DNA from: a virus
Taxonomy: Duplodnaviria; Heunggongvirae; Uroviricota; Caudoviricetes
IMG/VR virus record: IMGVR_UViG_2617271049_000013
Coordinates: 1 to 10,234 of that record
Direction: 5' to 3' (one strand)
DNA: 10,234 bases
The notes below the pieces were generated by a model. That model was not told the origin of the DNA, made no database searches, and saw nothing but the letters and a program-made list of their open reading frames with translations. The position numbers and the translations under genes are program-made. Each line of letters starts with the position of its first letter. The stretch's first letter is position 1. Below, piece after piece: positions 3,164-3,808 of this stretch.

Positions 3164-3191
3164 TTGTAAGTCATAAATAGAGTGATAGAAT
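3164..3191 (+). promoter_or_regulatory. Candidate sigma70 promoter for the 3227-3757 ORF
   Basis: TTGTAA (3164-3169), 16-nt spacer, TAGAAT (3186-3191), about 35 bp upstream of the ATG. A purine-rich AGG lies 6 nt before the ATG. Confidence 0.4.
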
Positions 3192-3226
3192 TAATGCACA
3201 TTTAGAAAAATGTTAATAGGCGAAAA

Positions 3227-3757
3227 ATGAAAGGCTATATCACAGCAAGTGTAATTCTTGGAGCAGCGGCTATTTTTTCATCTCTCATAATCTCTGGCAA
3301 CATCTCCTTTAAAGATGAACATATTATTCAGTTATCTGGAGGAGCCATAAAACTTGGTGATGTTTATAAAGAAAATAAATTGATAAGTGCAAAGATTATT
3401 TTTCCAGATAATCAGGGTGAACAGATTCTTGTTGTCGACGGCAATCCTGAAAACTTTAAGGAGGATTTTCAGGAGAAATTAAATAAAGTAATAAAAACTT
3501 TAAATGCGTCAAAGAAAAAAGATGAAGAGAAAGTTAGCCTAGATAATTTAAGTGTTATTGAAGAGTCTAAACTAGAGCTCGTTTCTGCGGTGCGTTACTC
3601 TGCTCAGTATGTTCCTATGTTTACTCTGATGCTGGACAAAAAAGAAATTACCATGCCTAAAAATACGGTAATATTTCCATTTGCCAGCGATGAAACAGCT
3701 AAGTATTTAAATGAACAACAGCAAAAGTATAAAGATTCGTTGTTTCTGACTCGCTAA
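3227..3757 (+). CDS. Hypothetical exported or membrane-anchored protein (176 aa), AT-rich cargo gene
   Basis: ORF with its own promoter-like motif and a strong downstream terminator. N-terminus MKGYITASVILGAAAIFSSLIISGNISF looks like a Sec signal peptide or signal anchor with no lipobox Cys. The remainder is a Lys/Glu-rich soluble domain. Composition is markedly AT-rich versus the flanking tail genes. Confidence 0.6.
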   Translation: MKGYITASVILGAAAIFSSLIISGNISFKDEHIIQLSGGAIKLGDVYKENKLISAKIIFPDNQGEQILVVDGNPENFKEDFQEKLNKVIKTLNASKKKDEEKVSLDNLSVIEESKLELVSAVRYSAQYVPMFTLMLDKKEITMPKNTVIFPFASDETAKYLNEQQQKYKDSLFLTR

Positions 3758-3777
3758 TTAATAAAATTCATTACAAG

Positions 3778-3808
3778 GCCACCTTCTAATAGGTGGCTTT
3801 TTTATTTT
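3778..3808 (+). terminator. Rho-independent terminator after the 3227-3757 ORF
   Basis: GCCACCT (3778-3784), 6-nt loop, AGGTGGC (3791-3797), followed by TTTTTTATTTT. Confidence 0.7.

What the first reader, a model, noticed from the sequence alone, without database searches (positions are those of the whole stretch)
3164..3808. Self-contained moron: promoter, 176-aa exported protein, strong terminator, inserted just upstream of tail genes
The ORF has a near-consensus promoter (TTGTAA-16-TAGAAT), an N-terminal signal peptide or anchor, and a strong intrinsic terminator immediately before the DNA circulation gene. It is sharply AT-rich compared with the adjacent tail genes, the hallmark of a horizontally acquired moron. 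Small exported or membrane-anchored moron proteins in prophages are frequently superinfection-exclusion or envelope-modifying factors. I could not assign it to a known family from sequence alone.
Basis: partly seen in the sequence, partly recalled or inferred. Interest (0 to 1): 0.65.

Follow-up and report, generated by a model that had tools for sequence, protein, structure and literature searches.

The report
Prophage moron encoding membrane-anchored periplasmic protein
This is a genuine add-on gene cassette ("moron") sitting in a swappable slot between two tail genes of an SfV/e14-type E. coli prophage; it encodes a membrane-anchored periplasmic protein of an uncharacterised family that most plausibly protects the host against incoming phages, although its function has not been tested.

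Summary
Window 3227-3757 is an intact 176-aa gene at 34% GC, against 47-54% in its flanks. A sigma-70-like site with an extended -10 lies upstream, and a -15.6 kcal/mol hairpin with a T-run lies downstream. It sits between the tape-measure (TMP) and DNA-circularization genes.

Comparison shows this junction is a polymorphic cargo slot. Of about 859 complete E. coli genomes with both flanks, 542 are empty, as are phages SfV, SfI and SfII. 172 carry this gene. Others carry a lipoprotein, a secreted protein, a membrane-anchored OB-fold protein or a bPH_1 protein. Homologues at 41-58% identity in Leclercia, Lelliottia and Edwardsiella occupy the same slot, with the same GC dip and their own terminators.

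The family (PHROG 5485, no Pfam entry, 77 clusters) is under purifying selection. The AlphaFold model is confident (pLDDT 91): an N-terminal signal-anchor helix plus an alpha/beta domain with no neighbour in the PDB.

In this window the prophage is a decayed e14-like remnant in which the cassette survives intact.

Two caveats apply. The promoter match alone is not above chance, and the empty slot also has a terminator.

The function is inferred, not shown: an inner-membrane superinfection-exclusion or injection-blocking factor, about 0.35-0.4 likely. This is a new member of a known kind, of moderate interest.

The parts
2928..3135 (+). Left flank: the last 208 bp (about 68 codons plus TAG) of the tail tape-measure gene. 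In this window it is a remnant joined directly to e14 int/xis-side DNA at about 2931.
   Evidence: 97.6% identical to EC1515 L001 8829-10591, where it is the 3' end of an 1833-nt 'phage tail tape measure protein' gene. e14 xisE-side homology stops at 2931.
3136..3800 (+). The moron cassette, meaning the DNA absent from empty-slot relatives. It comprises the upstream region with the promoter-like site, the ORF and the terminator stem.
   Evidence: Alignment with the empty junction of strain Ceylon31 (L006) and with SfV, SfI and SfII: 693 bp there against 1313 bp here. The cassette is 34% GC.
3164..3191 (+). Sigma-70-type promoter-like site: -35 TTGTAA (3164-3169), 16-nt spacer, TG (3183-3184), -10 TAGAAT (3186-3191). 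The predicted transcription start is about 3198, giving a 5' UTR of about 28 nt.
   Evidence: A TTGTAW -35-like motif directly after the TMP stop recurs in the homologues. L015 has TTGTCA-16-TATAAT and L020 has TGtTATAAT. Activity was not tested.
3218..3222 (+). Shine-Dalgarno-like AGGCG, 4-6 nt upstream of the ATG.
   Evidence: Read directly from the sequence. Purine-rich equivalents occur in all homologues.
3227..3757 (+). ORF176: a 176-aa protein of the PHROG 5485 family. It differs from WP_000679479.1 of EC1515 by T135M.
   Evidence: dN/dS is 0.08 in the only pair with unsaturated synonymous sites.
3230..3295 (+). N-terminal transmembrane signal-anchor helix (residues 2-23), with a conserved face of small residues (S8, G12, A/S14, S18/S19, S23).
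   Evidence: Hydropathy. AF2 helix 2-23. Family members carry 50-117-aa extensions before this helix.
3323..3739 (+). Predicted periplasmic alpha/beta domain (residues 33-171): membrane-proximal beta-hairpin, two long strands, helix 74-93, two strands, helix 149-171. The conserved motif is N/H32-[IV]-[IL]-x4-G39-x-V-x-L43-G44-x-V-Y47-x-E49, plus Y124, S126, E127, P130, F132 and L134.
   Evidence: AF2 model m0e516171bb0c, pLDDT 91.3, pTM 0.76. No PDB neighbour was found.
3775..3808 (+). Intrinsic terminator: stem AAGGCCACCT/AGGTGGCTTT, 6-nt loop, T-run. The T-run and the following RBS are shared with empty-slot relatives.
   Evidence: -15.6 kcal/mol, z = -4.9. Homologues have hairpins with different stem sequences at the same place.
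3819..4695 (+). Right flank: the N-terminal about 292 codons of the DNA-circularization (Mu gpN-like, PF07157) baseplate/tail gene, containing a masked N-run at 4247-4256. In this lineage it is fused in frame to a tail-fibre collar segment.
   Evidence: A 519-aa DNA_circ_N + Collar product is called in sibling contigs.

Best explanation
Shown: this is a moron cassette lodged in a recombinational cargo slot between the tape-measure and DNA-circularization genes of an SfV/e14-type myovirus prophage. It carries its own promoter-like site and Shine-Dalgarno and is closed by an intrinsic terminator.

Its product belongs to an uncharacterised, purifying-selected protein family. Members are found in prophage tail slots in Enterobacteriaceae and in small integrative elements in Pseudomonas-like genomes.

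Inferred from the model and from family architecture: the protein is bitopic in the inner membrane. It has a short cytoplasmic N-terminus, one signal-anchor helix with a conserved small-residue packing face, and a roughly 150-aa alpha/beta domain in the periplasm. No catalytic motif is evident, so it is more likely a binder than an enzyme.

Inferred by analogy only: it is expressed from the repressed prophage and here from a decayed remnant. It sits at the inner membrane and interferes with the trans-envelope DNA-delivery step of incoming tailed phages, for example tape-measure or ejection-protein insertion. That would be superinfection exclusion at the injection stage.

Likelihoods: the moron and cargo-slot architecture about 0.9; the signal-anchor, periplasmic-domain topology about 0.7; the injection-blocking function about 0.35-0.4.
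For: Insert versus empty site:
- 542 E. coli genomes and phages SfV, SfI, SfII and vB_EcoM-689R6 have the empty 60-bp junction.
- 172 genomes have this cassette.
- Others carry unrelated low-GC cargo. Three of these four encode envelope-targeted proteins: a lipoprotein, a protein with a signal peptide, and a TM-anchored OB-fold protein.

Synteny and hallmarks across genera:
- Leclercia, Lelliottia-type and Edwardsiella homologues (41-58% identity) lie in the same slot.
- They show a 34-39% GC dip and hairpin terminators with different stem sequences.

Real gene:
- The family has 77 representatives at 50% clustering, nearly all 170-180 aa.
- All 58 aligned full-length members (A3) match PHROG 5485.
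- dN/dS is 0.08.

Topology:
- There is a single hydrophobic helix at residues 2-23.
- Relatives P0089 and P0095/P0101 carry 50-117-aa N-terminal extensions before it, which excludes a cleavable N-terminal signal peptide in those members.
- The small-residue pattern in the helix is conserved at 20-30% overall identity.
- The only significant structural neighbour is a phage lipoprotein, which would likewise be tethered in the envelope (BFVD A0A2H4P829, E = 6e-7).

Dispensable for the virion: infectious SfV-group phages lack it.

Retention: the exact T135M variant is intact in at least 24 contigs of one decayed e14-like remnant. Nearly everything else of the tail module has been deleted there.

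Mobile-element cargo context of distant members: they sit beside an Mrr-type restriction endonuclease, serine recombinases and integrase/primase-type island genes.

Against: - No experiment or transcript data bears on expression or phenotype.
- The promoter match is 9/12 and not above chance on its own. Two of six homologues (L002, L014) lack a site that passes the same criteria.
- At 34% GC the cassette is likely to be an H-NS target (my own knowledge), so it may be silenced.
- There is no similarity to any known Sie, defence or envelope family.
- ORF176 carriers harbour a second SfV-type TMP/DNA-circ junction at least as often as empty-slot genomes: 8/60 against 3/60 in clonally biased samples. 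Strain KSC1031 has one filled and one empty module. Absolute exclusion of like phages is therefore not evident.
- Identity of ORF176 and of the TMP C-terminus do not co-vary among six homologue pairs.
- Signal-peptidase cleavage after G24 cannot be excluded for this particular member, because SignalP was not available.
Confidence: 0.4

Rival explanations
1. The product is an envelope-remodelling or host-fitness factor unrelated to phage exclusion. In this reading the anchored periplasmic domain binds a host envelope component, such as peptidoglycan, lipoprotein, LPS-assembly or transport machinery. That would alter stress tolerance, serum or bile resistance, colonisation, or colicin and antibiotic entry, in the manner of lambda Bor or Lom.
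For: - The slot's alternative cargo is dominated by envelope proteins of unknown function.
- The same remnant retains another AT-rich envelope gene, an Acyl_transf_3 at 6549-7598.
- The cassette is intact in a remnant that can no longer make phage.
- Polylysogeny gives no signal of phage exclusion.
- Morons with such roles are well documented (PMC3594210).
Against: - There is no similarity to any known envelope-biogenesis, adhesin or resistance family.
- Distant members sit in small mobile elements next to restriction-type genes rather than virulence loci.
- The family is restricted to mobile elements in every context examined.
Confidence: 0.25
2. The product is a lytic-cycle accessory protein expressed mainly by read-through of the late tail operon. 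In this reading it acts in the producing cell, for example by preventing re-adsorption or injection of progeny into the lysing cell (as T5 Llp does), by modulating lysis timing, or by conditioning the membrane.
For: - The gene is co-oriented with the tail operon and embedded in it in all Enterobacteriaceae homologues.
- The promoter is weak or undetectable in some homologues.
- The junction has a terminator even when empty, so late transcription must already read through this point. Any cargo there would then be co-expressed (SfII annotation).
Against: - It is absent from most related phages, including infectious ones.
- The OB-fold cargo occupies the slot in the opposite orientation, so operon read-through is not required of the slot's cargo.
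- Distant family members lie in non-phage integrative elements with no late operon.
- The gene is kept intact in a remnant with no late promoter or tail operon upstream.
Confidence: 0.15
3. The product is a single-gene abortive-infection or defence effector. In this reading the anchored protein senses an infection cue in the periplasm or membrane and then oligomerises through its conserved TM face. That would depolarise or permeabilise the inner membrane and kill the infected cell.
For: - The TM helix has a conserved small-xxx-small-type face suited to helix packing.
- Distant members are cargo of small mobile elements next to an Mrr-type restriction endonuclease.
- Sibling contigs of this remnant have a HEPN_Toprim_N protein near the integrase.
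Against: - No PADLOC model matches, apart from a partial Cas13d hit at E = 6e-4 that is evidently spurious.
- One TM helix per chain with a large folded periplasmic domain is not a typical pore-former.
- There is no partner sensor gene in the Enterobacteriaceae slot.
Confidence: 0.1
4. This is not a functional gene: a chance ORF or decaying pseudogene in AT-rich junk DNA.
For: - It is AT-rich.
- It has no annotated function.
- It lies in a degraded prophage.
Against: - The family has 77 representatives of constant length and architecture.
- dN/dS is 0.08.
- The AF2 model has pLDDT 91.
- The ORF is intact in 172-181 complete genomes at 99% identity or more.
Confidence: 0.02

Closest known systems
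HK97 gp15 moron (Juhala et al. 2000; Cumby et al. 2012; reviewed in PMC3594210)
   Same: - Both are extra DNA relative to sister phages.
- Both have a GC content different from their neighbours.
[quoted passage not shown]
- Both are embedded in the tail operon directly adjacent to the tape-measure gene.
- Both products are small proteins anchored in the inner membrane by an N-terminal helix.

gp15 blocks genome injection in a way that depends on the tail of the incoming phage.
   Different: - There is no sequence relationship: no YebO or other Pfam hit.
- ORF176 lies downstream rather than upstream of the TMP gene, in a myovirus with a Mu-like baseplate rather than a siphovirus.
- It carries a roughly 150-aa folded periplasmic domain, whereas gp15 is a very small protein (my own recollection).
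- No exclusion phenotype is known.
P22 SieA (PMC10883804)
   Same: Both are prophage-encoded inner-membrane proteins. SieA blocks DNA delivery by interfering with the ejection-protein conduit and is specific for related phages. This is the mechanism proposed here by analogy.
   Different: - No homology was detected in any search.
- The genomic location differs: sieA is not in the tail module.
- The phenotype is untested here.
Cor (phi80/N15/T1) and T5 Llp outer-membrane lipoproteins; lambda Bor and Lom
   Same: - All are envelope-targeted moron products encoded in or next to tail-gene regions.
- One alternative occupant of this very slot is a lipoprotein (L008).
- The only structural neighbour of ORF176 is annotated as a phage lipoprotein.
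   Different: - ORF176 has no lipobox and no Cys at all.
- It is predicted to be anchored by a TM helix in the inner membrane, not acylated or inserted in the outer membrane.
- There is no sequence similarity.
Hotspots of antiviral or accessory genes in P2/P4-like phages and satellites (Rousset et al. 2022, as cited in PMC11364771)
   Same: This is a fixed position between conserved phage genes where unrelated accessory genes alternate among otherwise near-identical elements.
   Different: - This slot lies between the TMP and DNA-circularization genes of SfV/e14-type prophages.
- It holds single small genes, mostly envelope proteins, none recognised by PADLOC.
- I found no paper describing it, although the literature search was limited.
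SNIPE membrane-bound nuclease (PMC13190303)
   Same: It is a defence that is constitutively membrane-localised and acts at the site of genome injection, associating with tape-measure proteins. It shows that the injection site is a bona fide target for defence.
   Different: - SNIPE is a nuclease, whereas ORF176 has no nuclease or other catalytic signature.
- The bulk of ORF176 is predicted to be periplasmic.
- There is no homology.

Membership tests
Moron (Juhala/Hendrix definition, as restated in PMC3594210) | Extra DNA that is absent from closely related phage genomes at the same position | tested here: met
   The empty 60-bp junction occurs in 542 E. coli genomes and in SfV, SfI, SfII and vB_EcoM-689R6. 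The cassette occurs in 172 genomes.
Moron (Juhala/Hendrix definition, as restated in PMC3594210) | Base composition different from the surrounding genes | tested here: met
   34% GC against 47% and 54% in the flanks here. The homologues are 34-39% against 47-57%.
Moron (Juhala/Hendrix definition, as restated in PMC3594210) | Own promoter | tested here: inconclusive
   TTGTAA-16-TGaTAGAAT is correctly placed. However, matches of this quality are as frequent in shuffles. Promoter-like sites are found in about 4 of 6 homologues and are strong in L015 and L020. No transcript data exist.
Moron (Juhala/Hendrix definition, as restated in PMC3594210) | Own terminator | tested here: met
   The hairpin is -15.6 kcal/mol with a T-run, z = -4.9. 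It is conserved with different stems in the homologues. Caveats: the empty slot also has a terminator, and one stem sequence is shared between unrelated cargo (L008 and L013).
Moron (Juhala/Hendrix definition, as restated in PMC3594210) | Expression from the repressed prophage | not testable with these tools
   This needs RNA-seq, 5' RACE or a reporter fusion.
HK97 gp15 / YebO family | Sequence homology to gp15/YebO | tested here: not met
   There is no Pfam hit of any kind at E <= 1. No member of the family hits a YebO model.
HK97 gp15 / YebO family | Inner-membrane protein that blocks genome injection | not testable with these tools
   The membrane anchor is predicted. The phenotype needs phage challenge.
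Phage lipoprotein exclusion factors (Cor, Llp, Ltp) | Lipobox with an invariant Cys following a signal peptide | tested here: not met
   The protein contains no Cys.
Known anti-phage defence systems (PADLOC-DB v2) | Match to a defence-protein HMM | tested here: not met
   The only hit is a partial Cas13d match at E = 5.9e-4 over 68 residues, which is not credible.
PHROG 5485 (unknown function) | Full-length match to the family profile | tested here: met
   E = 1e-107 over residues 1-176 of 176. All 58 family members match.
Tail structural or assembly component of SfV/Mu-like myoviruses | Conserved presence in all members of the tail module | tested here: not met
   It is absent from most related modules and from infectious SfV, SfI and SfII.
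Lactococcal Sie2009-type proteins (N-terminal anchor plus extracellular domain; recalled from memory) | Sequence or fold homology | not tested
Only the gross architecture resembles these proteins.

The most novel reading that the evidence does not exclude
The PHROG 5485 family would be a previously unrecognised class of mobile-element-borne, inner-membrane-anchored periplasmic proteins. It would have a fold of its own and would block phage genome delivery. The TMP/DNA-circularization junction of SfV/e14-type prophages, present in about 16-20% of complete E. coli genomes, would be an undescribed hotspot. That hotspot would swap at least five different single-gene envelope-acting anti-phage or host-conversion factors.
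Probability: 0.3. Interest if true: 0.6.

Novelty: new member of a known kind. Interest (0 to 1): 0.45.

Why it matters
Morons are how temperate phages pay rent to their hosts, yet most moron proteins still have no assigned function.

What this one offers:
- It is a clean, compact test case: 660 bp and one gene, with predicted promoter and terminator.
- It is widespread, present in about 3% of complete E. coli genomes, with relatives in Leclercia, Lelliottia, Edwardsiella and Pseudomonas-type mobile elements.
- It is under purifying selection.
- It has a confident structure model with no solved relative.
- It survives intact in a prophage remnant that has lost almost everything else.

The slot it occupies offers a natural panel for comparison, since isogenic tail modules carry five alternative cargo genes or none.

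If the protein blocks injection, it would add a new family to the small set of mechanistically understood inner-membrane exclusion proteins. It would also flag a new place to mine for such genes. If it does not, it is simply one more uncharacterised prophage accessory gene.

Tried and rejected
- **Sequence annotation gave nothing informative.** Pfam, NCBIfam, PADLOC and PDB searches by phmmer and by family profile found no real hit. The marginal hits (4HPPD, Cas13d, ppApp hydrolase, dextranase) were rejected as chance.
- **Deposited phage genomes.** tblastn of ORF176 and of a distant member (P0072) against 50,697 records found no match.
- **AFDB fold library.** It was not available.
- **Genome-contig scans.** The scan with the wide alignment failed for lack of a conserved peptide. 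The scan with the close alignment found only one further species, Edwardsiella anguillarum.
- **Neighbour in Pseudomonas-type elements.** I tested whether the 180-aa upstream neighbour is a paralogue. It is not.
- **Invertible segments.** I looked for inverted repeats next to the adjacent serine recombinases and found nothing convincing.
- **RNA families.** The Rfam scan of the window found no RNA family.
- **Co-variation.** ORF176 identity and TMP C-terminus identity show no trend across six homologue pairs.
- **Polylysogeny as a proxy for exclusion.** The samples are clonally biased and underpowered. If anything, the result goes against absolute homotypic exclusion.
- **Literature.** I found no paper on this protein or on this slot.
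Full report
**1. What is in the sequence**

The window carries an ATG-initiated ORF at 3227-3757 (+) of 176 codons. An AGG Shine-Dalgarno lies at 3218-3220.

- **Promoter-like site.** Upstream lies TTGTAA (3164-3169), a 16-nt spacer, then TAGAAT (3186-3191), with TG at 3183-3184, which makes it an extended -10.
- **Terminator.** Downstream lies a 10-bp stem with a 6-nt loop (3775-3800) and a T-run to 3808. As RNA it folds at -15.6 kcal/mol with z = -4.9, and none of 200 shuffles folds as well.
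- **Composition.** The cassette is 34% GC (GC3 29%). The 208-bp tape-measure remnant to its left is 47% GC and the DNA-circularization fragment to its right is 54%.
- **Protein.** It has one hydrophobic segment at residues 4-23 and no cysteine.

There is one statistical caveat. The promoter match scores 9/12, and the same scan finds as many such sites in shuffled sequence (3 observed against 2.7 +/- 1.7). On its own it proves nothing.

**2. It is a real gene belonging to a real, uncharacterised family**

- The protein is WP_000679479.1 ('hypothetical protein') with one substitution, T135M.
- It is found at 99% identity or more in 181 of 5,426 complete E. coli genomes.
- Word-indexed searches found only E. 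coli copies and relatives at 52-57% identity in Leclercia and Lelliottia.
- An exhaustive profile search of 1.84 billion representatives found 77 clusters. Nearly all are 170-180 aa with the same architecture.
- All 58 aligned members match PHROG 5485 (unknown function), and none matches a Pfam family.
- NCBIfam, PADLOC and PDB sequence searches, with both the single sequence and the profile, gave only chance-level hits.
- Between homologues, synonymous sites are saturated while non-synonymous divergence is 0.08-0.40. The only unsaturated pair gives dN/dS = 0.08.

**3. It is an insert in a polymorphic slot**

This is the main result. In intact prophages such as that of strain EC1515, the gene lies between 'phage tail tape measure protein' and 'DNA circularization protein'. 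The module runs HK97-type head, then Mu/SfV-type contractile tail.

I searched with the junction (window 2928-4240). About 1,090 E. coli genomes match some part of it. The empty-junction query shows that about 859 of these have both flanks. Only 172 hold the cassette.

- **Empty state.** 542 genomes have a 60-bp intergenic region instead. So do the infectious phages SfV, SfI, SfII and vB_EcoM-689R6.
- **Other cargo.** Four unrelated genes occupy the same point in other genomes:
  - a 125-aa bPH_1 protein;
  - a 225-aa lipoprotein with an LLGGC lipobox;
  - a 164-aa protein with a signal peptide, which appears to be the cargo of phage SKA5 (its junction span matches that of L009, and a hypothetical protein is annotated there);
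  - a TM-anchored tRNA_anti-like OB-fold protein on the opposite strand.

All four are 31-42% GC against flanks of 51-56%. None is recognised by PADLOC.

Alignment with the empty site places the left boundary right after the TMP stop at 3135. The right boundary lies in the terminator, because the T-run and the RBS of the DNA-circularization gene are common to all states.

The last 26 or so codons of TMP also differ between the filled and empty lineages, whereas the first 140 codons of the DNA-circularization gene are identical. This fits exchange by recombination in the flanks rather than site-specific insertion. I saw no target-site duplication.

**4. The same arrangement recurs across genera**

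Homologues at 41-58% identity occupy the same slot. They come from Leclercia adecarboxylata and L. pneumoniae, Edwardsiella anguillarum and several metagenomic contigs. A Lelliottia homologue also exists, but I did not examine its context.

- Each shows the same GC dip, 34-39%.
- Each is followed by a hairpin and T-run whose stem sequence differs: GGCCACC, CCCGCC, CTCACCAGG or AACCACC, at -12 to -22 kcal/mol.
- A TTGTAW motif follows the TMP stop in most of them. L015 reads TTGTCA-16-TATAAT and L020 has TGtTATAAT. L013 and the window score 9/12, L011 has only a weak 9/12 match (TTGGCA-18-TATTTT), and L002 and L014 fail the criteria.

A promoter is therefore plausible and partly conserved, but it is not demonstrated.

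The terminator needs a second caveat. The empty slot has its own (-14.6 kcal/mol), which is annotated as a 'terminator' in the SfII record. In addition, the stem after the unrelated lipoprotein cargo (L008) is identical to the one after the ORF176 homologue in L013. The terminator thus belongs at least as much to the slot as to the cargo.

**5. The protein**

With the 58-sequence alignment, AlphaFold2 gives a confident model: pLDDT 91.3, pTM 0.76, and all five models at 90 or above.

- Helix 2-23, then a linker.
- A membrane-proximal beta-hairpin (33-36 and 39-42).
- Strands 46-58 and 65-72.
- Helix 74-93.
- Strands 114-126 and 132-143.
- Helix 149-171.

Three observations argue that the N-terminal helix is a retained signal-anchor with the domain in the periplasm:
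- Its hydrophobic stretch is about 20 residues long.
- Family members P0089 and P0095/P0101 carry 50-117-residue hydrophilic extensions in front of it, which a cleavable N-terminal signal peptide cannot have.
- A pattern of small residues (positions 8, 12, 14, 18/19 and 23) is conserved in a family that is otherwise only 20-30% identical. This suggests a helix-packing face.

The most conserved residues lie in the membrane-proximal hairpin and the central strands: G39, L43, G44, Y47, E49, Y124, S126, E127, P130, F132 and L134. There is no obvious catalytic constellation. I could not run SignalP, so cleavage after G24 in this particular member is not excluded.

**6. The context in this window**

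The window does not hold an intact prophage. Its parts are as follows:
- intE (1144-2274, minus strand) and xisE (2252-2497, minus strand) are e14-type, and that homology stops at 2931.
- The only contiguous piece of the tail module is 2928-4695. It comprises the TMP 3' end, the cassette and the DNA-circularization N-terminus.
- That fragment is then fused to tail-fibre collar sequence (4298-5383). A tail-fibre assembly gene and a fragment of another follow.
- An AT-rich Acyl_transf_3 gene lies at 6549-7598 on the minus strand.
- By correspondence with the sibling contigs, the 54-aa ORF at 8544-8708 is an icd-like fragment that marks the right end of the remnant.

The exact T135M protein is found in at least 24 contigs, and the eight places shown have the same degraded arrangement. 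They include E. coli chromosome CP099208.1. In them a HEPN_Toprim_N gene and the 309-aa ORF of window 1-930 lie to the left of the integrase.

ORF176 is thus one of the few intact genes kept in a grounded prophage. That fits host benefit, but it could also be chance in one clonal lineage.

**7. Distant relatives**

Members at about 23% identity from Pseudomonas-type genomes are not in tail modules. They lie in small integrative elements:
- next to a 180-189-aa serine recombinase;
- next to an Mrr-type restriction endonuclease;
- with a large serine integrase, or a tyrosine integrase with a DUF5906 primase-like gene.

The family therefore looks like general mobile-element cargo.

**8. How it most likely works**

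*Shown.* This is a moron in a cargo slot. It is dispensable for virion production and encodes a conserved protein.

*Inferred with fair confidence.* The protein is bitopic in the inner membrane, with a periplasmic alpha/beta domain that binds something.

*Inferred by analogy only.* It interferes with the passage of incoming phage DNA across the envelope. The precedents are these:
- HK97 gp15 is the prototype moron. It is also adjacent to the tape-measure gene and is an inner-membrane protein (PMC3594210).
- P22 SieA blocks the ejection-protein conduit (PMC10883804).
- SNIPE shows that the injection site, with its tape-measure protein, is a target for defence (PMC13190303).

*Evidence against.*
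- There is no homology to any of these proteins.
- No expression data exist.
- ORF176 carriers hold a second SfV-type junction at least as often as empty-slot genomes (8/60 against 3/60). Strain KSC1031 has one filled and one empty module. The test is weak because the samples are clonal, the order of acquisition is unknown and some copies may be remnants. Still, it gives no sign of absolute exclusion of like phages.

*Rivals.*
- An envelope or host-fitness factor unrelated to phages (0.25).
- A lytic-cycle accessory protein expressed by operon read-through (0.15).
- An abortive-infection membrane effector (0.1).
- A non-functional ORF (0.02), effectively excluded.

**9. Comparison and novelty**

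As a kind of element this is a textbook moron, and three of the four sequence-testable criteria are met. The promoter criterion is inconclusive, and prophage expression is untestable here.

It is not a member of the gp15/YebO family, the SieA family, the Cor/Llp lipoprotein families or any PADLOC family. Those membership tests failed or could not be run.

Three things are new:
- the protein family, which has no Pfam entry, no solved or similar structure and no literature;
- the recognition that the TMP/DNA-circularization junction of SfV/e14-type prophages is a multi-allelic cargo slot, mostly for envelope proteins;
- the survival of the cassette in a decayed remnant.

**10. Verdict**

The interpretation as a moron is supported, while the function remains a hypothesis. 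This is a new member of a known kind. I score interest at about 0.45: a specialist would not be surprised, but it is a clean and tractable candidate for a new exclusion or envelope factor.

Noticed in passing
window 3136-3800; loci L006-L010: The TMP/DNA-circularization junction is a multi-allelic cargo slot with six observed states. It may be empty (60 bp) or hold ORF176, a bPH_1 protein (125 aa), a lipoprotein (225 aa), a secreted protein (164 aa, apparently also the cargo of phage SKA5) or a TM-anchored tRNA_anti-like OB-fold protein (148 aa, opposite strand). All cargo is low-GC and none matches PADLOC.
   Followed up: yes
L008 1277-1329 and L013 3526-3581: The terminator stem AAACCCGCTTCGGCGGGT is identical after two unrelated cargo genes: the E. 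coli lipoprotein and a Leclercia-type ORF176 homologue. The empty slot also has a hairpin and T-run, annotated 'terminator' in the SfII record. The terminator therefore seems to travel with the slot or backbone rather than with the cargo ORF.
   Followed up: partly
window 2925-2935 and 4689-4695: There are two deletion scars. e14 xisE-side DNA joins directly to the last 208 bp of the tape-measure gene, and the DNA-circularization N-terminus joins tail-fibre (stfP-like) sequence. In sibling contigs the second junction yields an intact in-frame 519-aa DNA_circ_N + Collar fusion ORF. The left junction was not seen in the best hits among 5,426 complete RefSeq E. coli genomes.
   Followed up: partly
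window 4247-4256: A run of 10 N (masked bases) lies inside the DNA-circularization fragment. It splits the ORF calls (3813-4370 and 4298-5383) in this window.
   Followed up: no
window 6549-7598 (-): A 349-aa Acyl_transf_3 membrane acyltransferase at about 31% GC. It is another AT-rich cargo gene retained in the remnant, possibly an O-antigen or envelope-modifying gene. It is truncated to 307-335 aa in some sibling contigs.
   Followed up: no
window 1-930 (+), and upstream in L024-L029: A 309-aa AT-rich ORF (31% GC) with a hydrophobic N-terminus and no Pfam or PADLOC hit. In sibling contigs it follows a 445-aa HEPN_Toprim_N protein, to the left of intE. From my own knowledge of K-12, this is where e14 carries lit, ymfD and ymfE, so it may be an integrase-proximal defence-cargo region.
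   Followed up: no
window 8544-8708 (+) and 9830-10234 (-): The 54-aa ORF corresponds to a weak Iso_dh (icd-like) fragment in sibling contigs. It probably marks the attR end of the e14-like remnant. The DUF1398 gene at the window end (ycgX-like, from my own knowledge) would then be chromosomal.
   Followed up: no
L016 4634-6534; L019 4935-6531; L023 631-2185: Distant family members (about 23% identity) are repeatedly paired with a divergently oriented 180-189-aa serine recombinase (invertase/resolvase type), with a small exported or 66-aa ORF between them. These sit in small integrative elements, and L016 also carries an Mrr-type restriction endonuclease. No convincing inverted repeats for an invertible switch were found.
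   Followed up: partly
P0095/P0101 (286 aa), P0089 (224 aa), P0079 (250 aa): Some family members have long acidic or low-complexity N-terminal (cytoplasmic) or C-terminal extensions. P0095 sits next to a Pkinase-family gene on a short contig.
   Followed up: no
window 3272-3300 (-): An antisense promoter-like site, TTGCCA-17-AAAAAT with TG, lies inside the 5' end of ORF176. It is probably a chance match in AT-rich DNA.
   Followed up: no
E. coli KSC1031 (NZ_CP019560.1) 4278560 and 2017501: This genome carries both an ORF176-filled and an empty SfV-type TMP/DNA-circ junction. It would be a natural strain for testing whether ORF176 excludes like phages.
   Followed up: no
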